Position numbers and translations under genes: made by a program. Below, piece after piece: positions 27,114 to 64,000 of a DNA stretch of 64,000 nucleotides. Positions within the stretch are counted from its first letter, which is position 1; the number at the start of each line of letters is the position of its first letter. A model generated the notes under the pieces. It worked only from the letters and a program-made list of their open reading frames with translations. It was not told the DNA's origin and ran no database searches. This DNA comes from Escherichia coli phage AZ21, in the sequence record LC788708.1. One strand, 5' to 3'.

Positions 27114-27309
27114 TTTTGTTCCTTTCTAAGAACGTATCATACTCAACCGTATCAACATATATAACACCATAGTCATCGGATTTATAGTCCATCTCCCACA
27201 GCTCACAGCGATAGCACCAACTACCATCTGCCCATACAAATATATCATCGGGATGTGTATAAACAGATTTAACTATGGACATATCTATTTCCCTTGCTTC
27301 TCGACACAT
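27100..27309 (-). CDS. Hypothetical protein
   Basis: 69-aa ORF overlapping neighbours at both ends. Confidence 0.4.
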   Translation of the reverse strand: MCREAREIDMSIVKSVYTHPDDIFVWADGSWCYRCELWEMDYKSDDYGVIYVDTVEYDTFLERNKNGNK

Positions 27310-28105
27310 AAGGTCTACCCTCTAAATGAGCTTCTACACGAGCAATAAAATCAGGGTCACTAAAAGCATCTACCGCACCTTTACTCCAGTAAGGGATACC
27401 GCGTTCTTCCAACTGGTACATCTCACTACGAGTCATACCTTGATAGCCAGGTTCTGCTGCGAGGGCACTATCATAGTAGTTAACAACCATAAGTTTCGCA
27501 GCAGTCAAATTAAGAACAGGAAATAATTCCCAGTAGAAGTTAATTACTTGGTTAGAGCAACCAACCACAATGATCATATCTTGACTGGTAATACCATCAA
27601 AAACATTATACATTTCTGCGTATGCAGGAGCACACTCCCCAAAGAAGATTACATTAGGTTTAACCCATTTATAATCATCTGGATCAATAGAATTGTATCC
27701 TACATCAATAATCCGTTTATTGCTACTATTGTAGCTATCAGCTACAACAACCTCTTTTAAATATCCGTGAATGTGCAGAATGTCACTATGTGGAACGCCA
27801 GCACGCTCAATAAGGTCATCAACGTTGGTAGTCAAGTTTACTACTTGACCTGGATATTGTTTATACCATTCACCAATACGCAAATGCGCAAGATTGGGTT
27901 CAACAGTTTTTAGCTCTTCACGACGCTTGTTGTAAAACATATGGGTTTTATGATAAAAATTACTACGAAAGGCATGAATATTACATACTTCTTCTAGATC
28001 ATAATCATCCCACAATGCTTTACCACTAGCAGTATCAGTACGGAAGGCTCGTACACCACTTTCAACACTCAAACCTGCACCACTAATAATAATTAATCTA
28101 CGCAT
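27269..28105 (-). CDS. Sir2 (sirtuin)-like NAD-binding protein
   Basis: GAGLSVESGVRAFR (sirtuin GAGxSxxSGIPxFR), TTNVDDL, HIHG (catalytic His), IFFGE, VVGCS; no zinc-ribbon cysteines seen. Confidence 0.65.
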   Translation of the reverse strand: MRRLIIISGAGLSVESGVRAFRTDTASGKALWDDYDLEEVCNIHAFRSNFYHKTHMFYNKRREELKTVEPNLAHLRIGEWYKQYPGQVVNLTTNVDDLIERAGVPHSDILHIHGYLKEVVVADSYNSSNKRIIDVGYNSIDPDDYKWVKPNVIFFGECAPAYAEMYNVFDGITSQDMIIVVGCSNQVINFYWELFPVLNLTAAKLMVVNYYDSALAAEPGYQGMTRSEMYQLEERGIPYWSKGAVDAFSDPDFIARVEAHLEGRPYVSRSKGNRYVHS

Positions 28106-28319
28106 TTTTCACCTGTTCTCTGAAGTTTTGCCCAATACTGTCTAATAGCTCAGCTAATTCTTTATTGCCTTTCCCCATTAAGGTATTAGCAATAACTTCT
28201 AGCATAGTAGCGCAGGATTCAACACCATCCTTATAGCCAGTTTCCCAGCGCTGCATTAATGCGTTTTCCAAAACAGCGTTTAAACCCTTATCTGGTAGCA
28301 TCGGCTTCGAGAATGCCAT
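28098..28319 (-). CDS. Hypothetical protein
   Basis: 73-aa ORF. Confidence 0.4.
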   Translation of the reverse strand: MAFSKPMLPDKGLNAVLENALMQRWETGYKDGVESCATMLEVIANTLMGKGNKELAELLDSIGQNFREQVKNA

Positions 28320-28491
28320 AAAGTTTCTCCTCTAGTTCCATGATACGACTTTCATAAGAGGCACGCAACTTTTCAATTGCCAGAGCACGCACTGTAATCT
28401 CATTAGAATTAATAGCTAATTGGGCCAGATCTTCTGTTTCCATACGTCCGTTGTAAATTAAGCGATATTTAAGATGTTTTACGTTTTTCAT
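28288..28491 (-). CDS. Hypothetical protein
   Basis: 67-aa ORF. Confidence 0.4.
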   Translation of the reverse strand: MKNVKHLKYRLIYNGRMETEDLAQLAINSNEITVRALAIEKLRASYESRIMELEEKLYGILEADATR

Positions 28492-28500
28492 TCTTGTTCC

Positions 28501-28782
28501 TTAGTTCTGTACTGTAAACTCATTCTTATCACAGTGAGCATAATAATACCCATACATACGATAAATTTTCACAGCCTTAGTAGACCCCTTCGATTCTTCA
28601 TAATCAATCCAGAGCCACTTGTCTTTACCTACATAATGTACCCGAAACTTCTTAACTTTCTTATCATTCCATGTTGCAACAACACGACGATAATCAAATC
28701 CTCCCAACCAATCTAGAGCCTTACGTTCTTCGCTAGGCTCTCCAAAATGGGAGACATCTACTTTAGGAAGCAACTCGCTCAT
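28501..28782 (-). CDS. Hypothetical protein
   Basis: 93-aa ORF; promoter box copy at 28785-28815. Confidence 0.45.
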   Translation of the reverse strand: MSELLPKVDVSHFGEPSEERKALDWLGGFDYRRVVATWNDKKVKKFRVHYVGKDKWLWIDYEESKGSTKAVKIYRMYGYYYAHCDKNEFTVQN

Positions 28783-28881
28783 AGCTTTCTCCTCTCAAAT
28801 TTATAAATCTATTATATATAAATTTTTGGCTGAAAGCAAATAAAATAAAAGCCAGGTCGACTAGCAACCCGGCTGATTAGC

Positions 28882-30729
28882 TTATTTAGCTCGAATATCC
28901 TGATGTTTCACTCTGCCCATCACCTCGTGCTGTTTGCCGGGGTTAAATGGACGAGCACCCGGATTTCCAAGATACCCACAAACTCGACGAGTTACTTCAA
29001 GAGTCTCAGGGTCATGATTACCACAGATAGGGCACTTAAATCCATCTTCGGATGCTATTGTTTCACCTAAGAATCCACATTTACCACAAGAATCCACTGG
29101 GGTATTAATACCGAAGTAATGAACCTTACTAGCAGCATAATTAATAACCCATTCCAGTGCATCTGGGAATCGTTTCATATCCGGTAGTTCTACATAGGAA
29201 ATGCACCCACCAGAAGCAATCGGAGTAAAGTTAGATTCATAATCAAATTTCACATTGGGAGCAACTTTACGTTCTACATCAAGGTGGTGCGAGTTAGTGT
29301 AGTATCCTTTGGACAGAATATCTTCATGCTCTGGGAAATATTCACGGTCTAGACGACAAAAACGGTCGCATAGGGATTCTGATGGTGTAGCATACAGACT
29401 ATAACCTAGTTTAGTTTCTTCCTTCTTCTGATCGACTCTATCCCGCATGTACTGCAATACACGCTGAACAAACTTGATGCAGGTCTCGGACATTGTGTCT
29501 ACATCTTTGCCAAACATGAACTGTAGCATTTCATGGCAGCCAATATACCCTAGAGATACAGAAGCACGGTTATAGAAATGATCGAATACATATTCCTCAG
29601 GCCCCAAGCGTAACCCAAAGGCTCCTGACATATAGAGGATGGGTGCAGCTTTAGCTTGAATGTATTTTAAGCGATCAACTCTCCACTCCAACGCTTTTAA
29701 TGCTGTATCCACACGTAGCTCAAGCAAATCAAAGAATAGGTCAATATTTCCTTCAGCTTCGATAGCAATTCTAGGCAAGTTTACAGAAACAACACCTAAG
29801 TTATTACGACCGGCAGTTTCACCATCTTCTGTAGCAGCTAGGAATGAACGGCAGCCCATAGAAACTTTATAGTCTCCAGTAACTTCTACAACCTTGTCAT
29901 AGCTGATATAATCTGGATACATACGTTCAGCAGTACATTTCATAGCTAACTTCTTGATGTCATAATTAACATCTCCTGGTTTCATGTTAACACCATCACG
30001 AAGTACAAATACCAGTTTCGGGAAGATAGCTGTACGTTTATTGATACCTAAACCATCCATGCGTACTTTCAGTATTGCCCTCTGTACTAGACGTGCTTCC
30101 CAAGAAGTTCCTAGACCAAAACCAAAGGTAATAAATGGACTCTGACCATTAGAGTTGAACATGGTATTGATTTCATATTCTAAACCCTGACAAGCGTCAT
30201 AGACTTCTTTTTCAGTCATCTCCGTAGCCATTACGGATGCTTTGGCCTCATCCTTAGTCCAACGTTTTGCAAACGCATGATTTTTATCATAGGATTTACG
30301 AACATAAGGGGCTAATACTTCATCAAGGCGATCTACAGAAGTACCACCATACTGATGGGAGCTAACCTGAGTGATAATCTGAGCAGTAATAGCCGCCGCA
30401 GTAGTAATAGAGTTTGGAGTGCTAATTTCAGCATTACCAACCTTCATACCATTCTTCAACATATCTTCCAGAGCTACCAGACAACAGTTAGTCATGCCTA
30501 ATGCAGCATAATCAGCATCATGGAAATGAATATCCCCAATCATATGAGCATTTCGAATCTGAATTGGCATTTCTTCTAGAATCAGATACTTACTCAATTC
30601 ACCTGCAAGCATATCCCTTTGTGTAGGGAAACGTTCTGAGGGTTTATTAGCATTATTAAACAGCAGCTCTTCATCTGCTGACCCTTCGATAATCTCTTTG
30701 CAGTTTCTAATCAATTCATCTTTGTTCAT
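28882..30729 (-). CDS. nrdD: Anaerobic ribonucleoside-triphosphate reductase (class III RNR)
   Basis: 615 aa; C-terminal zinc site CGKCGF...CPICG and glycyl-radical motif RRVCGYLG. Confidence 0.9.
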   Translation of the reverse strand: MNKDELIRNCKEIIEGSADEELLFNNANKPSERFPTQRDMLAGELSKYLILEEMPIQIRNAHMIGDIHFHDADYAALGMTNCCLVALEDMLKNGMKVGNAEISTPNSITTAAAITAQIITQVSSHQYGGTSVDRLDEVLAPYVRKSYDKNHAFAKRWTKDEAKASVMATEMTEKEVYDACQGLEYEINTMFNSNGQSPFITFGFGLGTSWEARLVQRAILKVRMDGLGINKRTAIFPKLVFVLRDGVNMKPGDVNYDIKKLAMKCTAERMYPDYISYDKVVEVTGDYKVSMGCRSFLAATEDGETAGRNNLGVVSVNLPRIAIEAEGNIDLFFDLLELRVDTALKALEWRVDRLKYIQAKAAPILYMSGAFGLRLGPEEYVFDHFYNRASVSLGYIGCHEMLQFMFGKDVDTMSETCIKFVQRVLQYMRDRVDQKKEETKLGYSLYATPSESLCDRFCRLDREYFPEHEDILSKGYYTNSHHLDVERKVAPNVKFDYESNFTPIASGGCISYVELPDMKRFPDALEWVINYAASKVHYFGINTPVDSCGKCGFLGETIASEDGFKCPICGNHDPETLEVTRRVCGYLGNPGARPFNPGKQHEVMGRVKHQDIRAK

Positions 30730-31387
30730 TAATTATTTCCTCAATAAACCTTGCTACTACTTCTGGCTCAATACTAAAAAATTCTGTAGCACCATCAAAA
30801 TCTTTATATTGACAATTATATTCCTTAAAATGTAGATGGGTTTCTCTCTCAATACGCATAGCTTTTGATCTATCTGAAAAGCTATACTCCTTAAATATTT
30901 TTAAATCATGTATGTTAGAAGAAGTTTTAATATCTCTGAGTCTATCTTTAGTTCTGCTAGACACACCTATTTTGGTCCCCACATTACTTACTAAAATATA
31001 TACGTTAGTAGGATAATTATCCTTTTCTAATAAACATATAGGACAACCAGAATTATGATTCCTAACACTATCGAGTGTAGACTCCCACCTATGATCATTC
31101 TCACAGCTAAACATGATTTTACTCTTGGAATTGATGTATTTACCTTCCATCTTTATTCCACGGGCAGCTAACGACTCATTTACTTCTTTAAGATCTAAAG
31201 TACGGCTAGCACAATAAGGGCAGCCCCTACCACCTTTTACGTTATCTACTCTAGCCTCCCAACTATGTCCATTAGAGCACTTAAATATAGCATTGGATTT
31301 AGCTGATATATACGTGCTTAGCATAACTATTCCTCTAGGAGCAAGTGCTAAGTTCACATCTTCTGTAGTTATTTTCTTTCTTACCAT
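30716..31387 (-). CDS. T5orf172 / GIY-YIG-like domain protein with tandem zinc-ribbon repeats (putative homing endonuclease)
   Basis: Two repeats FKCSNGHSWEARVDNVKGGRGCPYCA and FSCENDHRWESTLDSVRNHNSGCPICL; C-terminal NVYILVSNVGTKIGVSS...GATEFF; start overlaps nrdD by 14 nt. Confidence 0.6.
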   Translation of the reverse strand: MVRKKITTEDVNLALAPRGIVMLSTYISAKSNAIFKCSNGHSWEARVDNVKGGRGCPYCASRTLDLKEVNESLAARGIKMEGKYINSKSKIMFSCENDHRWESTLDSVRNHNSGCPICLLEKDNYPTNVYILVSNVGTKIGVSSRTKDRLRDIKTSSNIHDLKIFKEYSFSDRSKAMRIERETHLHFKEYNCQYKDFDGATEFFSIEPEVVARFIEEIINEQR

Positions 31388-31609
31388 TAAATTCTCCTTA
31401 ATTCACATATTATACATAATTCCACCCCATACGTCAACTACATTTTTCTAATACTATTTGACTTTTGATTTTTATCAATTTTTATTGACGTTATACAGCA
31501 TAATATCTTTACGTATAAATAAATGAATATCTAGTATCATATTTCTACCTTTATAAGCAAGTAAACTTTTTATTTAAAAGCAATATCATAGGTTTATTTA
31601 AAATTATAC

Positions 31610-31638
31610 TTGCTTTTTGCTGTAAACCTTGTTATAAT
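31610..31638 (+). promoter_or_regulatory. Sigma70-type early promoter (phoH operon) in the divergent intergenic region
   Basis: ttgctt-17 nt-tataat in AT-rich 320-bp region. Confidence 0.6.
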
Positions 31639-31714
31639 ATATTCGTAAGTTGATAAACAAGATCTCTTTGTTGATCCTCTGTTAGAAGCGAAGTACACTA
31701 TAGGAGTGTTATTT

Positions 31715-32467
31715 ATGGGAAAAGCACGTCAAAAAAGAGAGAACCGCAATGGTTCAAGAAAGCGTGGCAACAAATATGAGAATACCGTAATTCAGGCTGA
31801 TTTTTCTAATGATTACGCTAACCCAGTTGCTAAATCCCTAGTAGGTAAAAACCGCGAGCAAAAATCATATATCAATATGATCAAGAACAACACAGTGACT
31901 GTGGGTATCGGTGAGCCGGGTACTGGTAAAACCTTTATTCCGTCCGTTCTTGCAGCTCAGGAACTCGTAGACATTCACTCAGATATTGAGCAAGTGATCC
32001 TCGTACGTCCTAATGAACCTCTAGGCAAGTCTCTTGGTATGCTTCCTGGTGATCTAGCAGAAAAGCTAGAGCCTTGGTTGGAGCCAATAGCTGATGGTAT
32101 GAAATGGGCCATCGGCGATCATGCATATAAAGGATATGTCGAACGTCAGAAAATTAAATTTTTGGCTATCGAACATGCTCGTGGCAGAACTTTCAACAAC
32201 TCCTATGTAATTGTCGATGAAGCTCAGAATATTTCCGTTGAGGCAATGATTTGTCTCCTAACTCGTGTAGGACAAGACTGCCGTTTAATTATCTGCGGAG
32301 ATATAGCTCAGAAAGACATTAAAGGTGACTCAGGTCTAGCACTCCTTATGGAAGTCTATGAGAAATACGAAAATGCCCCATTCTCAATGATCGAATTGAT
32401 TGATAACGTTCGTTCTGTCGAGTCTAAAGCATTCTATGATATTTTTAAAGACATGGGGAAGGTGTAA
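31715..32467 (+). CDS. phoH: PhoH-like ATPase
   Basis: Walker A GEPGTGKT, Walker B VIVDEAQN; start at ATG with RBS aggag (not the upstream GTG at 31706). Confidence 0.85.
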   Translation: MGKARQKRENRNGSRKRGNKYENTVIQADFSNDYANPVAKSLVGKNREQKSYINMIKNNTVTVGIGEPGTGKTFIPSVLAAQELVDIHSDIEQVILVRPNEPLGKSLGMLPGDLAEKLEPWLEPIADGMKWAIGDHAYKGYVERQKIKFLAIEHARGRTFNNSYVIVDEAQNISVEAMICLLTRVGQDCRLIICGDIAQKDIKGDSGLALLMEVYEKYENAPFSMIELIDNVRSVESKAFYDIFKDMGKV

Positions 32468-32468
32468 T

Positions 32469-32690
32469 ATGGGAAACGTCGTTCATCTGAGCCGTAAAAC
32501 TAAAATACATCGTACTTCACTGAGTGCTGCTAATATTATTACACGTAAGGAAGGAGAAGAAAGTCCTAAGACAACCCTAGCGTGGAAAATTGTAACCTCA
32601 AATCCAAATAAACCATTCAATTATAACGAGCTGAGCACCTCCATAGATATTCTATTAAAAGAAGTAGCTAGAGCTAAAGTAATTGAATAA
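32469..32690 (+). CDS. Hypothetical protein
   Basis: 73 aa from MGNVVHL; ATG overlaps the phoH stop. Confidence 0.4.
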   Translation: MGNVVHLSRKTKIHRTSLSAANIITRKEGEESPKTTLAWKIVTSNPNKPFNYNELSTSIDILLKEVARAKVIE

Positions 32691-32832
32691 GCTAAAAAGC
32701 TAGACTGGTAATATACAGGGCCTGGGTATGAAAATACTCGGGCCTTTTCTATCAGAAAATTTTATTTGCCTAATGACCAATAATAATGTAGAATATTCCT
32801 TAAATCCTGATAACTATAAAAAGGAAAGCCAA

Positions 32833-35163
32833 ATGAGCCATCGCATTGAAAAAGTAATTAAACGTGACGGTACTGTAGAAGACTTTGCTCCTGAAAAAAT
32901 CAATGGTTGGGCAGAGTATGGTTGCAAAACAGTTGATGTAAGTTGGTCAGCCATTACTATGGCTGCTCAAAAAACTCTGCCTAAAGGGGTTGTAGATTCC
33001 GACACTCTGATGGATGCATTAATTAAAGCTGCTGAAAGTCTTATTAAAGATAATCCAGCATATGATGTGCCAGCAAAGGAATTACGTCTTGCGCAAATGC
33101 GTAAACGCCTTTATGATTCCTTCGAACCGCCTTCTCTGCGCTTCTTCCATGACCATATGGTTAGCGTAGGTGCATGGGAAGACATGAGTGCATGGATTAC
33201 CGATGAGCAATTTGAAGCTCTGAATCAGGTTATCGACCATGATCGTGACCGTCTTTTTACTAGTGGTGGGCTGAAGCAGTTCTTTGATAAGTATTCCCGC
33301 CGTAACATAGCCACTGGTGAAATTTATGAAACCCCGCAGTTTGCCTACATGGGTATGGCAATGGCGATGCTTTCTCAACCTAACTGGACAATTCTAGATG
33401 CAATCGACCTCTACAACGCAATGTCACTCCACAAAATCAACGTTCCTACGCCGCCACTGGTTGGTCTGCGCTCTAGTGACCGTGGATTTGCTAGTTGCTG
33501 TCTCGTGGATTCCACTGACACGTTGGATTCAATCGACACCGCCGAGCACATCGTCTTCAAAATGGTCGCAGCCAGAGCGGGAATCGGGTATCATCTTGAA
33601 AGCCGATCAATTGCTGATCCGGTGCGAAATGGGGCATTCCCGCATTCCGGAAAACTGCCATATTATCGACACATTGACCGCTCAGTAAAGGCCAATACTC
33701 AGCAAACTCGTGGTGGTTCTGCTACAGTGTCTTATCCATACTTCGACCCTGAAATCATTCAATTGATGCAGGTTAAGCAACAACGTGCTACAGATGAGAA
33801 TAAAATCGATAAGATGGATTATTCTCTGAGCTTTAACAATCTTTTGTTAAAACGTTATCTTAAAAACGAAGATATTACGCTAATGTCATACTTCTATGCT
33901 CCAGAAGTTCATGAAGCGTTTTATAGTGATGACGAGGCTAAATTTGAAGAAATCTACGTGGCAGCGGAGAAACGTGTGGCATCTCTTACAAAGATCGACC
34001 ACGAAGGAAAAACAGTTCCTGCAGCTCCTAAAGTCTCTGCAAAAGAAATCCTAGATACTTGGCTACGTATCCGAATGGAAACAGGACGTATGTATGCTCA
34101 TCACATCGGGGAATCTAATCGTCACGGTAACTTCCTTGATCCGATCCGTATGACAAACCTTTGTGTTGAAATTACTCAGCCTACACGCCCGTTCCATCAT
34201 ATCACAGAGCTGTATAAGACAAAAGAGCAGCTTGATCAAATGAAGCCGGAGGATATTGGTGAAGTATCTCTGTGTAACTTAGGCGGTGTTGTACTTGGAC
34301 GCATGGAATCTCTGGCTGAGTGGGAAAAAACTTGCTACATCCTTCTGAAATTCGTTGATACAATTATTGAGATTCAGGATTATCCGTTCCCAACTATGGA
34401 ATATACGGCTAAGAAACGTCGTAATGTTGGTATTGGCCTGATGAACGCAGCAGGTGCAATGGCAGCAGAAGGTCTGGCTTACGAAGGTATTGAAGCCCGT
34501 AACTGGATCCACCGTGAGGCTGAAAAACTGTCTTACTTCCTGCATAAAGCCTCTGTACGCCTAGCTAAAGAACAAGGTGCATGTGAGTGGTTTGATCGTA
34601 CTAAACCATCTAAAGGAATTCTGGTAATCGACACGTACAAGAAAACTGTTGATGAACTAGTATCCGTAGGCCTAGAAATGGATTGGGAGTCTCTGCGGGC
34701 AGATATTCTGAAATATGGTATGCGTAACTCTGTTCTAACTGCTCAGATGCCGGGAGAAAGTTCTTCTGTTCTGTTAGGTGTTACTAACTCTATTGAACCA
34801 CCTCGTAAGATTGTATCTATCAAGGGTAGTGCAGTAAATAAAGTAATTGCAATTGCTCCGGGTGCAACCGATTGGGAGACGTTAATGAGCTATAAACTGG
34901 CTTATGATGTAGATCGTATCGAGTGGATCAAGTGGGTAGCAACTATGCAGAAATTCTTCAGTCAGTCTATCAGTACGAATATGTACTATGACTACACCAA
35001 GTTTGAGAATGAAATCATTCCTGGCCCAGTAGTAGTTCGTGATTTCATGACTGCTGTTAAGTATGGGTGGAAAACTTTCTATTATGCTAACTTCAACACC
35101 GCAAATGGTGGAGGTGCTGGAGAAGAAGCAGCCGGTTGTGCATTCGGTGGTTGTACTATTTAA
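32833..35163 (+). CDS. nrdA: Ribonucleotide reductase large subunit (class Ia)
   Basis: ATP-cone VIKRDGTVEDF at N-terminus, catalytic core and C-terminal Cys pair; start at MSHRIEK with RBS aaaggaaag. Confidence 0.9.
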   Translation: MSHRIEKVIKRDGTVEDFAPEKINGWAEYGCKTVDVSWSAITMAAQKTLPKGVVDSDTLMDALIKAAESLIKDNPAYDVPAKELRLAQMRKRLYDSFEPPSLRFFHDHMVSVGAWEDMSAWITDEQFEALNQVIDHDRDRLFTSGGLKQFFDKYSRRNIATGEIYETPQFAYMGMAMAMLSQPNWTILDAIDLYNAMSLHKINVPTPPLVGLRSSDRGFASCCLVDSTDTLDSIDTAEHIVFKMVAARAGIGYHLESRSIADPVRNGAFPHSGKLPYYRHIDRSVKANTQQTRGGSATVSYPYFDPEIIQLMQVKQQRATDENKIDKMDYSLSFNNLLLKRYLKNEDITLMSYFYAPEVHEAFYSDDEAKFEEIYVAAEKRVASLTKIDHEGKTVPAAPKVSAKEILDTWLRIRMETGRMYAHHIGESNRHGNFLDPIRMTNLCVEITQPTRPFHHITELYKTKEQLDQMKPEDIGEVSLCNLGGVVLGRMESLAEWEKTCYILLKFVDTIIEIQDYPFPTMEYTAKKRRNVGIGLMNAAGAMAAEGLAYEGIEARNWIHREAEKLSYFLHKASVRLAKEQGACEWFDRTKPSKGILVIDTYKKTVDELVSVGLEMDWESLRADILKYGMRNSVLTAQMPGESSSVLLGVTNSIEPPRKIVSIKGSAVNKVIAIAPGATDWETLMSYKLAYDVDRIEWIKWVATMQKFFSQSISTNMYYDYTKFENEIIPGPVVVRDFMTAVKYGWKTFYYANFNTANGGGAGEEAAGCAFGGCTI

Positions 35164-46027: not shown

Positions 46028-46056
46028 TTGCTTGAATGCTAAATTCTCTGTATAAT
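46028..46056 (+). promoter_or_regulatory. Sigma70-type early promoter
   Basis: ttgctt-17 nt-tataat-atatttataaatttgagagagg. Confidence 0.7.
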
Positions 46057-46086
46057 ATATTTATAAATTTGAGAGAGGAATCAAAT

Positions 46087-46383
46087 ATGAAACGCATTGT
46101 ACTTGCATTGACTCTAGTATCTACTTCTGTATTTGCTGCTCCACAACAGGAACTTTGTCAAGTTCAAGTTTGTAATAAGCTAGAACGATTTACTTTGGAT
46201 ATTTGGTCACACATTAAAGATAATATGGGTGAGCAATGTTTTGATATTGTTCTGCCAAAAGAACAAGCTGTTCCTGGTGCTGTTCTCAGCTCAGAATCAC
46301 GTTGGTGGCAAGGTTCTTCTATCAATCCAACTAAGAAGTCAGTGACACGTATCAAACAAGTGTATCAGTGCAGTGTTCAGTAA
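46087..46383 (+). CDS. Small secreted Cys-containing protein
   Basis: Signal peptide MKRIVLALTLVSTSVFAAPQ; 98 aa; start at ATG with RBS gagagagg. Confidence 0.5.
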   Translation: MKRIVLALTLVSTSVFAAPQQELCQVQVCNKLERFTLDIWSHIKDNMGEQCFDIVLPKEQAVPGAVLSSESRWWQGSSINPTKKSVTRIKQVYQCSVQ

Positions 46384-63653: not shown

Positions 63654-64000
63654 ATGAGAGAAAAAGTAAATGAATTACTAATCGAGGAAGCTAACAACTT
63701 TCCAATAAATAGGTTTGTCAAATCTGATGGATCTATTAATAGAACTAAGATTAAGCAGCTACATCCCGACTTTCAACAAGAAGCACTAAACCTTATATTT
63801 ATCAAGAAAGCTGTTGCAGTTCATGGGGCTTTCTTTGGGTATGAGCGTGTAAATTACAAAACAATGCAACAGCAAGTCGAGATCTACTGTCCAGATCATG
63901 AAGGGTATTATTGGCAAACTGCTAGATCTCATTTAGAAGGGCATGGTTGTCGACTGTGTGCACACAAGGTTGTGCAGCGTGTCACGGATTATGGAACTTA
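63654..64000 (+). CDS. 3'-partial ORF with zinc-ribbon motif similar to the T5orf172-type endonuclease repeats (runs off the window end)
   Basis: Open frame from ATG 63654 to window end; EIYCPDHEGYYWQTARSHLEGHGCRLCA resembles the repeats of the 30716..31387 protein. Confidence 0.4.
   Translation, partial: MREKVNELLIEEANNFPINRFVKSDGSINRTKIKQLHPDFQQEALNLIFIKKAVAVHGAFFGYERVNYKTMQQQVEIYCPDHEGYYWQTARSHLEGHGCRLCAHKVVQRVTDYGT

What the first reader, a model, noticed from the sequence alone, without database searches (positions are those of the whole stretch)
30716..31387. T5orf172/GIY-YIG-like endonuclease-type gene with duplicated zinc ribbons, overlapping the start of nrdD
The gene overlaps nrdD by 14 nt and is followed by a 320-bp AT-rich divergent promoter region. 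Nucleotide-metabolism genes are classical homing-endonuclease insertion sites. The protein has two zinc-ribbon repeats (FxCxxxHxWE...GxGCPxC) and a C-terminal T5orf172-like module ending GATEFF. A related zinc-ribbon motif recurs in the partial ORF at the window end (63654..64000).
Basis: partly seen in the sequence, partly recalled or inferred. Interest (0 to 1): 0.45.

Follow-up and report, generated by a model that had tools for sequence, protein, structure and literature searches.

The report
Mobile nuclease gene upstream of nrdD
This is a selfish "homing endonuclease" gene of an already described type (two zinc fingers plus a T5orf172/GIY-YIG nuclease) sitting in front of the anaerobic ribonucleotide reductase gene of a T5-like phage; it is real and nicely documented by comparison with relatives, but it is an ordinary example of a known class.

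Summary

The window is a T5-like phage, 100% identical over this locus to E. coli phage AZ23.

The gene is part of a roughly 800-bp cassette that is present or absent among near-identical phages:
- About 317 GenBank records have the empty site, with a native nrdD promoter and 15 N-terminal codons.
- 20 records carry this allele.
- 5 and about 30 records carry two other alleles, 44-48% identical in protein, at the same site.
- Two decayed remnants exist.
- One phage has an HNH endonuclease in the same spacer.

Next to the cassette, nrdD carries foreign 5' tracts of graded length: about 15 nt here, then about 95 nt, about 270 nt, or the whole gene. This pattern resembles co-conversion. The cassette also supplies nrdD's promoter, ribosome-binding site and start codon.

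Paralogs sit at other classic sites, such as between terminase and portal genes and just downstream of nrdD.

The class, including its abundance in T5-like phages and its position near RNR genes, was published by Barth, Dunham & Seed (2023). Cleavage and homing remain untested. Verdict: a real but ordinary new member of a known kind.

The parts
30716..31387 (-). Free-standing putative homing endonuclease gene ('HEG-A'), 223 codons: two zinc fingers followed by a T5orf172/GIY-YIG nuclease domain.
   Evidence: ORF listing. Pfam hits above cut-offs. phrog_681 'endonuclease', E=2.9e-49. Nine sampled copies are all intact, with dN/dS 0.06-0.18.
31202..31366 (-). Zinc-finger repeat 1 (residues about 8-62; ligands C37, H41, C56, C59). 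Predicted DNA-binding module.
   Evidence: DUF4379/CapR hits. Invariant Cys/His columns. Model pLDDT 92-95.
31025..31192 (-). Zinc-finger repeat 2 (residues about 66-121; ligands C95, H99, C115, C118).
   Evidence: 46% identical to repeat 1, E=7e-17. Second DUF4379 stretch.
30734..31009 (-). T5orf172 nuclease domain (residues 127-218). Invariant residues are Y130, G141 (within the 'KIG' motif), R149, E180, T201 and E202.
30716..30729 (-). 14-nt overlap: the nrdD start codon (30727-30729) lies inside the last codons of the endonuclease gene, whose stop is at 30716-30718.
   Evidence: Sequence read directly. The same arrangement occurs in alleles B (8-nt overlap, from the annotated coordinates) and C (14 nt, read), and in the phA11 remnant.
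30736..30742 (-). GAGGAAA ribosome-binding site for nrdD, encoded by the endonuclease's C-terminal 'IEE' codons.
   Evidence: Sequence. The string TTTAT[TC/A]GAGGAAA is conserved at nucleotide level in alleles A, B and C and in both remnants, but not in paralogs at other loci.
31409..31437 (-). Promoter-like site (TTGACG-17-TATAAT) carried by the cassette. Presumed to drive both the endonuclease gene and nrdD.
   Evidence: Promoter scan, 11 of 12 matches. The native nrdD promoter of empty-site phages (TTGACA-17-TATAAT, 12 of 12) is absent here.
31394..31399 (-). AAGGAG ribosome-binding site of the endonuclease gene, 6 nt upstream of its ATG.
   Evidence: Sequence read directly.
30715..31510 (.). 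Approximate extent of the insertion/replacement cassette relative to empty-site phages. The left junction is just past the endonuclease stop codon. The right junction is in the spacer near 31510-31521.
   Evidence: Alignments with PNJ1902, SSP1, EH7, NR01 and others.
28882..30729 (-). nrdD (anaerobic ribonucleotide reductase), 615 aa. This is the host gene flanked by the element. Here it is a chimera: 5 foreign N-terminal codons followed by the common 'type I' allele.
   Evidence: Pfam NRDD E=4.9e-172. N-terminus is MNKDEL-IRNC, against MNRNEELKYKEMQAL-IRNC in empty-site phages.
31388..31714 (.). AT-rich (about 26% G+C) divergent spacer between the endonuclease gene and phoH. A candidate phoH promoter is TTGCTT (31610-31615), 17-nt spacer, TATAAT (31633-31638).
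   Evidence: Composition. Sequence. The phoH promoter is my reading of the sequence; the scan did not flag it.
63654..64000 (+). Partial ORF (146 aa in AZ23) with one related zinc finger and no nuclease domain.
   Evidence: phrog_4605 E=7.8e-86. Zinc-finger part of phrog_681 E=5e-9. No Pfam hit.

Best explanation
The gene encodes a site-specific DNA endonuclease of the T5orf172 branch of the GIY-YIG superfamily. It is targeted by two tandem treble-clef zinc fingers and behaves as a free-standing homing endonuclease gene.

Proposed mechanism (inferred, not shown). When a phage carrying the gene co-infects a cell with a T5-like phage that lacks it, the enzyme cuts the other genome near the 5' end of nrdD or its promoter. 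This is the roughly 120-165 bp segment that every carrier genome lacks. Recombinational repair from the carrier genome then copies in the cassette plus a variable stretch of adjacent nrdD.

What is shown here:
- The domain content and the predicted nuclease fold.
- The presence/absence and allele polymorphism at one fixed site.
- The graded foreign tracts in nrdD next to the cassette.
- Purifying selection on the gene.
- A cassette built so that it does not harm the phage. It brings its own promoter, and its last codons encode the ribosome-binding site and start codon of nrdD.
For: Domains and fold:
- Pfam DUF4379 x2, CapR, T5orf172 and MUG113 all score above cut-off.
- The AF2 model has mean pLDDT 86.4.
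- R149 and E180 are invariant. The T5orf172 nuclease Odn of phage ICP1 cuts DNA in vitro and is inactivated by mutating the equivalent conserved Glu (PMC8263062).

Polymorphism at the site:
- The empty-site junction is found in 317 GenBank phage records.
- This allele is in 20 records, allele B in 5, and allele C in 35 records, 27 of them near full length.
- In 29 IMG/VR loci anchored on phoH the counts are 1 A, 2 B, 6 C, 1 remnant, 1 HNH and 18 empty.
- Remnants exist in L025 (internal deletion) and phA11 (a 64-aa C-terminal stub).

Recombination signature:
- Window vs NR01: 96-100% identity from the endonuclease stop codon rightwards, but only about 60% across nrdD.
- Foreign 5' nrdD tracts are about 15 nt in AZ23 and NG_A1, about 95 nt in SA001, YJin, PMBT26 and rutana, about 270 nt in EH7 and L018, and the whole gene in NR01, VAH1 and ESCO40.
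- Type II nrdD is always accompanied by the gene or a remnant (11 of 11 sampled). The native type I N-terminus is always at a site without a T5orf172 gene (20 of 20 sampled).

Paralogs at other classic sites: terminase-portal in T5 and a Klebsiella phage, immediately downstream of nrdD in KKP_3831, and the spanin region in LmqsSP1.

Selection: dN/dS is 0.06-0.18 across nine intact copies.

Literature: T5orf172 HEGs with repeated CapR/DUF723/DUF4379 zinc fingers are abundant in T5-like phages, and 33% of neighbourhoods contain an RNR gene (PMC10448857).
Against: - No cleavage, target site or homing event is demonstrated, for this gene or for any T5-like T5orf172 gene. Barth et al. state that homing of this class has not been verified experimentally.
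- In the window, nrdD is identical to the empty-site allele from codon 6 onward. The target therefore cannot lie solely in that part of nrdD. Its placement in the replaced segment is inference.
- The polymorphism is a replacement: about 165 bp swapped for about 800 bp. Direction of change (gain or loss) is not proven for any single genome.
- Foldseek against the PDB with the whole three-domain model gave no significant hit.
- No solved structure is detectable by sequence.
Confidence: 0.8

Rival explanations
1. Domesticated DNA-binding protein. The zinc fingers bind the nrdD/phoH control region and the protein acts as a regulator, like the satellite protein CapR. The gene is kept because its cassette supplies nrdD's expression signals, and there is no DNA cleavage or mobility today.
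For: - The CapR homology domain scores above cut-off. CapR is a transcriptional repressor derived from this kind of gene (PMC10448857; PMC8096241 title).
- The cassette does provide nrdD's promoter, ribosome-binding site and start codon.
- Strong purifying selection fits any function.
Against: - The nuclease domain is complete, with invariant Y130, R149 and E180. It is itself under purifying selection, dN/dS 0.11-0.27.
- About 317 related phage records lack the gene altogether.
- Remnants show that nrdD expression needs only the cassette ends, not the protein.
Confidence: 0.07
2. Exclusion or anti-parasite nuclease. The enzyme cuts competing phages or satellites, as Odn of ICP1 does, and this benefits the carrier phage. 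Its own copy-in mobility would be incidental or absent.
For: - Odn is a T5orf172 nuclease used against a satellite (PMC8263062).
- GIY-YIG homing enzymes of T4 are known to cause marker exclusion (my own knowledge: SegF, SegG).
- There is a weak PADLOC hit to PDC-S57, E=0.002.
Against: - Three divergent alleles occupy exactly the same site, each with adjacent co-conversion-like tracts. This is what copy-in repair predicts and is not needed for pure exclusion.
- The PADLOC hit is marginal and covers only the nuclease domain.
- Exclusion and homing are not mutually exclusive, so this is more a shade of the main explanation than a true alternative.
Confidence: 0.08
3. An ancestral, non-mobile gene lost by deletion in most lineages. 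The polymorphism would reflect loss and ordinary recombination among T5-like phages, not nuclease-driven spread.
For: - Decay products exist.
- T5-like genomes are generally mosaic.
- The direction of change cannot be read from any single comparison.
Against: - Empty sites are not simple deletions. They hold about 165 bp of their own sequence, including a perfect consensus nrdD promoter and 15 extra codons.
- The same allele, 94-100% identical, sits beside nrdD alleles that are 60%, 88% and 98-100% identical, and occurs in two genera.
- Recombination breakpoints pile up at the gene's end.
- Family members occupy several unrelated loci.
Confidence: 0.05

Closest known systems
T5orf172-family homing endonuclease genes with repeated CapR/DUF723/DUF4379 zinc fingers (Barth, Dunham & Seed 2023, NAR Genom Bioinform, PMC10448857)
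   Same: - The architecture matches: N-terminal repeated zinc fingers and a C-terminal T5orf172 domain.
- The lineage is one the paper names as enriched (T5-like phages).
- The gene sits next to a ribonucleotide reductase gene.
- It lies at a boundary of genetic exchange.
- Presence is variable and decayed copies exist.
   Different: - That paper characterises mainly ICP1 and Vibrio phages.
- I did not find this site (upstream of nrdD), its three alleles, the graded nrdD tracts, or the donation of nrdD's ribosome-binding site and start codon described in the paper's main text or in a partial term search of its supplements (some files are truncated). I did not search other T5-phage literature for them.
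Odn (Gp88) of vibriophage ICP1, a T5orf172 nuclease (PMC8263062)
   Same: It has the same nuclease domain family. Odn's DNA cleavage in vitro depends on the conserved Glu, and the corresponding invariant Glu is present here (E180).
   Different: Odn uses a RepA_N DNA-binding domain and targets a satellite's replication origin. It is not a zinc-finger protein and is not a homing element.
Free-standing GIY-YIG homing endonucleases of phage T4 (SegA-SegG), and I-TevI
   Same: - The layout is modular: a nuclease plus a separate DNA-binding region.
- The genes sit between or next to essential genes, including nucleotide-metabolism genes.
- Flanking markers are co-converted (my own knowledge of the Seg literature).
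   Different: - Domain order is reversed here: DNA binding is N-terminal and the nuclease is C-terminal.
- The 'YIG' Tyr is replaced by Lys in a 'KIG' motif.
- The DNA-binding modules are treble-clef zinc fingers rather than the I-TevI-type zinc finger, NUMOD and helix-turn-helix modules.
- There is no detectable sequence similarity to canonical PF01541 (one search lists only T5orf172 and MUG113).
mobE / HNH endonuclease genes embedded in or beside phage ribonucleotide reductase genes (T4 mobE; Aeh1 mobE splitting nrdA, cited in PMC10448857 ref. 8)
   Same: A selfish endonuclease gene is lodged at an RNR gene and arranged so that RNR expression is preserved.
   Different: The nuclease family differs (HNH). 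Here nrdD is not split; only its first codons and its control signals are replaced.

Membership tests
T5orf172 domain family (PF10544), GIY-YIG clan | Match to the family profile above the curated cut-off | tested here: met
   T5orf172 scores 42.3 bits against a cut-off of 20, over residues 127-218 and covering profile positions 13-100 of 101. MUG113 scores 41 bits against 22.3.
T5orf172 domain family (PF10544), GIY-YIG clan | GIY-YIG alpha/beta fold (strand-strand-helix-strand-helix core) | tested here: met
   [not shown]
T5orf172 domain family (PF10544), GIY-YIG clan | Conserved catalytic Arg and metal-binding Glu (plus the first-strand Tyr) | tested here: met
   Y130, G141, R149 and E180 are invariant in 15 homologues. 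Their equivalence to I-TevI R27 and E75 is inferred from their position in the fold and from the Odn alignment described in PMC8263062. I did not check it residue by residue in a superposition.
T5orf172 domain family (PF10544), GIY-YIG clan | Endonuclease activity | not testable with these tools
   Needs purified protein and a DNA substrate.
Zinc-finger-array T5orf172 HEGs (Barth et al. 2023) | One or more CapR/DUF723/DUF4379 zinc fingers N-terminal to the T5orf172 domain | tested here: met
   Two DUF4379 stretches and a CapR hit above cut-off. The repeats are 46% identical to each other. C/H/C/C ligands are invariant.
Free-standing homing endonuclease gene | Present/absent at one fixed site among closely related genomes | tested here: met
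   GenBank counts are 317 empty, 20 allele A, 5 allele B and 27-35 allele C records. IMG/VR loci agree. Junctions are mapped.
Free-standing homing endonuclease gene | Co-conversion of flanking sequence (foreign tracts of variable length next to the gene) | tested here: met
   Foreign tracts at the nrdD 5' end are about 15, 95 and 270 nt, or the whole gene. This is consistent with co-conversion, but ordinary recombination could give the same picture.
Free-standing homing endonuclease gene | Not inside an intron or intein; no transposon-type ends | tested here: met
   nrdD is one continuous ORF. There is no Rfam intron match in 28000-33000. No terminal repeats flank the cassette.
Free-standing homing endonuclease gene | Enzyme cleaves the gene-less allele near the insertion site, and the carrier allele is immune | not testable with these tools
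   All carrier genomes lack the native nrdD promoter and first 15 codons. This fits a target in that segment, but it is inference.
Free-standing homing endonuclease gene | Super-Mendelian transfer in mixed infection | not testable with these tools
   Needs phage crosses.
Anti-phage defence systems (PADLOC) | Significant match to a defence-system protein model | tested here: not met
   Only PDC-S57 at E=0.002, 15.8 bits, over the nuclease domain alone.

The most novel reading that the evidence does not exclude
In T5-like phages nrdD may be a nuclease-bracketed, exchangeable module. T5orf172 genes occupy a site just upstream of nrdD (alleles A, B and C) and a site just downstream (KKP_3831 type). 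Their cuts could drive whole-gene replacement between nrdD alleles that are only about 60% identical, in otherwise 95-100% identical genomes.

In addition, the upstream element may have become the obligatory expression module of type II nrdD, supplying its promoter, ribosome-binding site and start codon. That would explain why its two ends persist after the nuclease itself decays.
Probability: 0.35. Interest if true: 0.4.

Novelty: new member of a known kind. Interest (0 to 1): 0.22.

Why it matters
The main value is for annotation and as a clean natural example. In AZ23 the gene is annotated 'hypothetical protein'. It can be named a T5orf172/GIY-YIG zinc-finger homing endonuclease.

The locus shows several stages side by side in sequenced T5-like phages:
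- empty sites;
- three competing alleles;
- decayed remnants;
- graded co-conversion-like tracts;
- replacement of a whole essential gene.

Homing has never been shown experimentally for this nuclease class. T5-like coliphages are easy to cross, which makes this a convenient system for a first demonstration.

The locus also explains why nrdD trees of these phages disagree with their genome trees. It does not open a new kind of biology.

Tried and rejected
- **Sequence search of solved structures with a family profile:** nothing significant. The best real hit is a DUF4379 protein of the trypanosome mitoribosome at E=0.62.
- **NCBIfam:** no family.
- **PADLOC:** one marginal hit, so membership of a defence system is rejected.
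- **Rfam:** no intron or other RNA family around the gene, so an intron-encoded endonuclease is rejected.
- **Repeats:** no terminal direct or inverted repeats bound the cassette, so a transposon-like insertion is rejected.
- **Window-end ORF:** my own zinc-finger and nuclease HMMs, run on all window ORFs, found no second family member in the window. They did not significantly detect the window-end ORF (E about 0.3), and Pfam did not either. Only the PHROG profile did.
- **First homologue search:** the single-sequence search found only 7 proteins. A profile search found 1300, but these are dominated by multi-zinc-finger proteins that have other effector domains or none.
- **Barth et al. supplements:** I looked for specific T5-like phages that carry this site. 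NR01, AKFV33, SHSML-45 and VAH1 were not found. Stp1 is present, but the files are truncated.
- **Target site:** I could not define it. nrdD beyond codon 5 is excluded as the sole target, because the window's own copy equals the empty-site allele there.
Full report
**What is there**

Its last 14 nt overlap the start of nrdD (28882..30729, minus strand).

Pfam places four families above their curated cut-offs:
- DUF4379 'probable treble-clef zinc finger', two stretches, 54.1 bits.
- CapR homology domain, 34.9 bits.
- T5orf172, 42.3 bits, residues 127-218.
- MUG113, 41 bits, in the same GIY-YIG clan.

PHROGs gives phrog_681 'endonuclease' at E=2.9e-49.

The two zinc-finger repeats are 46% identical to each other (E=7e-17). 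Their C-x3-H...C-x2-C ligands are invariant in homologues.

Neighbours are nrdD (Pfam NRDD, E=4.9e-172) and, divergently across a 327-bp spacer of about 26% G+C, phoH. The spacer carries a near-consensus promoter for the gene, TTGACG-17-TATAAT at 31437..31409 on the minus strand, and an AAGGAG ribosome-binding site.

**Fold**

I predicted the structure from a 15-sequence alignment. Mean pLDDT is 86.4. pTM is 0.47, as expected for three domains on a string. The C-terminal domain has the strand-strand-helix-strand-helix order of GIY-YIG nucleases.

Foldseek with the whole chain found nothing. No solved relative is detectable by sequence.

Y130, G141, R149, E180, T201 and E202 are invariant in the alignment. 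The Arg and Glu are the residues that matter in this superfamily. In the one T5orf172 enzyme tested biochemically, Odn of phage ICP1, changing the conserved Glu abolishes DNA cleavage (PMC8263062).

**Whose genome, and is the gene optional**

The region is 100% identical to E. coli phage AZ23 (Tequintavirus) and matches 456 phage records, nearly all T5-like.

Aligning relatives shows a replacement polymorphism. In phages such as PNJ1902:
- nrdD is 625 aa with the N-terminus MNRNEELKYKEMQAL-IRNC.
- A perfect TTGACA-17-TATAAT promoter lies about 30 nt upstream of nrdD.
- A TTGCCA-17-TATAAT promoter faces phoH.

In the window, about 165 bp of that sequence is replaced by about 800 bp (roughly 30715-31510). 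The replacement holds a promoter, the endonuclease gene, and a new five-codon N-terminus for nrdD (MNKDEL-IRNC). Homology to the empty site resumes immediately after the endonuclease stop codon.

Counts in GenBank phages:

| State of the site | Records |
|---|---|
| Empty-site junction, at least 80% coverage | 317 |
| This allele ('A') | 20 |
| Allele B (EH7/AKFV33 type, 45-47% protein identity) | 5 |
| Allele C (SP3 type, 44% identity, 301 aa, three zinc fingers) | 35 (27 near full length) |

All three alleles lie at the same place, in the same orientation, and overlap the nrdD start.

In 29 IMG/VR loci anchored on phoH the tally is 1 A, 2 B, 6 C, 1 remnant, 1 HNH and 18 empty. Shigella phage SSP1 has an unrelated HNH_3+AP2 endonuclease gene in the same spacer, on the other strand.

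Two decayed copies were found:
- L025 keeps the allele C promoter, the 5' leader and the last roughly 40 nt, but has lost the coding body.
- phA11 keeps only a 64-codon C-terminal stub, which still overlaps nrdD by 14 nt.

**Signature of lateral movement**

nrdD exists as two alleles only about 60% identical in both DNA and protein. They sit in flanks that are 95-100% identical.

- Type II (MTENELIENC...) was always found with the endonuclease gene or a remnant of it (11 of 11 sampled).
- The native type I N-terminus was always at a site lacking a T5orf172 gene (20 of 20 sampled).

Allele A, 94-100% identical in DNA, lies beside several different nrdD alleles:
- type I nrdD in AZ23, NG_A1, SA001 and YJin-2024a;
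- an approximately 88%-identical variant in PMBT26 and rutana (genus Epseptimavirus);
- type II in NR01, VAH1 and ESCO40.

Next to the cassette, the 5' end of nrdD carries a foreign tract of graded length:
- about 15 nt in AZ23 and NG_A1;
- about 95 nt in SA001, YJin, PMBT26 and rutana;
- about 270 nt in the allele B phages;
- the whole gene in NR01, VAH1 and ESCO40.

This is the pattern expected from repair of a break near the insertion site using a carrier genome as template. Ordinary recombination concentrated at this boundary could look the same.

The gene is not decaying. Nine sampled copies are all intact, and dN/dS is 0.06-0.18.

Family members also occupy other classic sites in Demerecviridae:
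- between the large terminase and portal genes in T5 itself and in a Klebsiella Sugarlandvirus;
- in the spanin region of LmqsSP1;
- immediately downstream of nrdD in KKP_3831.

In the population, therefore, nrdD is bracketed by two such sites.

**How the cassette spares its host**

The native nrdD promoter, ribosome-binding site and start are gone. The cassette replaces each of them:
- Its promoter is the only good candidate upstream.
- No terminator-like site lies between the endonuclease stop and the nrdD start, which overlap; the scan's only minus-strand site in this stretch sits inside the endonuclease ORF (31234..31219).
- The endonuclease's C-terminal codons ...F-I-E-E-I-I-N... spell TTTATTGAGGAAATAATTAATG, which is a GAGGAAA ribosome-binding site followed by the nrdD ATG.

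That string is conserved at nucleotide level in alleles A, B and C and in both remnants. It is not conserved in paralogs at other loci. This explains why remnants keep exactly the two ends of the cassette.

The last four codons of allele A co-vary with the nrdD type (EQR* with type I, DRE* with type II), because they are also the first nrdD codons.

**Most likely mechanism**

The protein is a site-specific nuclease directed by two zinc fingers. It cuts T5-like genomes that lack it, near the nrdD 5' end or promoter, and it is copied in during recombinational repair.

*Shown:*
- domain content and predicted fold;
- conserved catalytic residues;
- site polymorphism with three alleles and remnants;
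- graded flanking tracts;
- purifying selection;
- the expression arrangement.

*Inferred:*
- cleavage itself;
- the target location;
- the direction of transfer.

On the target location: the window's own nrdD equals the empty-site allele from codon 6 onward. The target therefore cannot lie only there. The one segment that all carriers lack is the native promoter plus the first 15 codons.

**Comparison with what is known**

The class has been described. Barth, Dunham & Seed (2023; PMC10448857) report the following:
- T5orf172 genes with repeated CapR/DUF723/DUF4379 zinc fingers are putative homing endonuclease genes.
- They are abundant in T5-like phages.
- A ribonucleotide reductase gene is present in 33% of their neighbourhoods.
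- They sit at boundaries of genetic exchange.
- Homing has not been verified experimentally.

Orthologues of this very gene are already labelled 'T5orf172 domain protein' (VAH1), 'endonuclease' (NR01 RefSeq) or 'putative endonuclease' (YJin-2024a).

Compared with T4 Seg proteins and I-TevI, the catalytic fold is shared. The domain order is reversed, the second motif is KIG rather than YIG, and the DNA-binding modules are different.

The gene is not intron-encoded, not transposon-like, and not a recognisable defence-system component.

**Verdict**

This is a well-behaved new member of a known kind.

In the one paper I read on this class, and in a partial search of its supplements, I did not see the local natural history: three alleles, remnants, graded tracts, whole-gene nrdD replacement, and donation of nrdD's translation signals. 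I did not search other T5-phage literature. That history makes a tidy case study and a convenient experimental system, but a specialist would not be surprised by it.

Noticed in passing
window 46041-46090 (compare LC788707.1 46162-47953): The window is 99.99% identical to phage AZ23 on both sides of this point. It lacks a 1.84-kb segment that in the AZ23 record holds nadR and pnuC. About 50 nt at the break match both sides, which suggests a deletion between short direct repeats, or a sister isolate without these genes.
   Followed up: partly
window 63654-64000 (+), partial; full ORF in L005:2567-3007: A 146-aa protein (phrog_4605, unknown function) has a single zinc finger that matches the zinc-finger part of the endonuclease family phrog_681 (E=5e-9). 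It has no nuclease domain. It could be a stand-alone DNA-binding relative or a leftover of such a gene.
   Followed up: partly
L036 (Salmonella phage KKP_3831) 3001-3687: A 44%-identical T5orf172 zinc-finger gene sits immediately downstream of nrdD in some T5-like phages. In the population, nrdD therefore has such a gene site on each side, and the 60%-identical nrdD allele swap spans exactly the interval between the two sites.
   Followed up: partly
L002 (Shigella phage SSP1) 2951-3442: An unrelated HNH_3 + AP2-domain endonuclease gene occupies the same nrdD-phoH spacer on the opposite strand. The spacer is a hot spot for selfish nuclease genes.
   Followed up: partly
L025 3596-3800 and L041 (phage phA11) 2483-2677: These are decayed copies of the endonuclease gene. 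One is an internal deletion that keeps the promoter, leader and last codons. The other is a 64-codon C-terminal stub. Both retain the part that supplies nrdD's ribosome-binding site and start codon.
   Followed up: yes
window 31555-31577 / 31593-31615: A 23-nt imperfect inverted repeat (78% complementary) lies just upstream of, and runs into, the candidate phoH promoter. It is also present in empty-site phages. It may be an operator; its function is unknown.
   Followed up: no
window 27269-28105 (-): A SIR2-family (NAD-dependent deacetylase-like) gene lies a few genes downstream of nrdD. It is annotated as such in related T5-like phages.
   Followed up: no
window 32690-32840, upstream of nrdA: The annotated nrdA start and length differ among close relatives (2331, 2436 or 2451 nt), and the spacer before it varies. 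This may be another variable junction in the RNR gene cluster.
   Followed up: no
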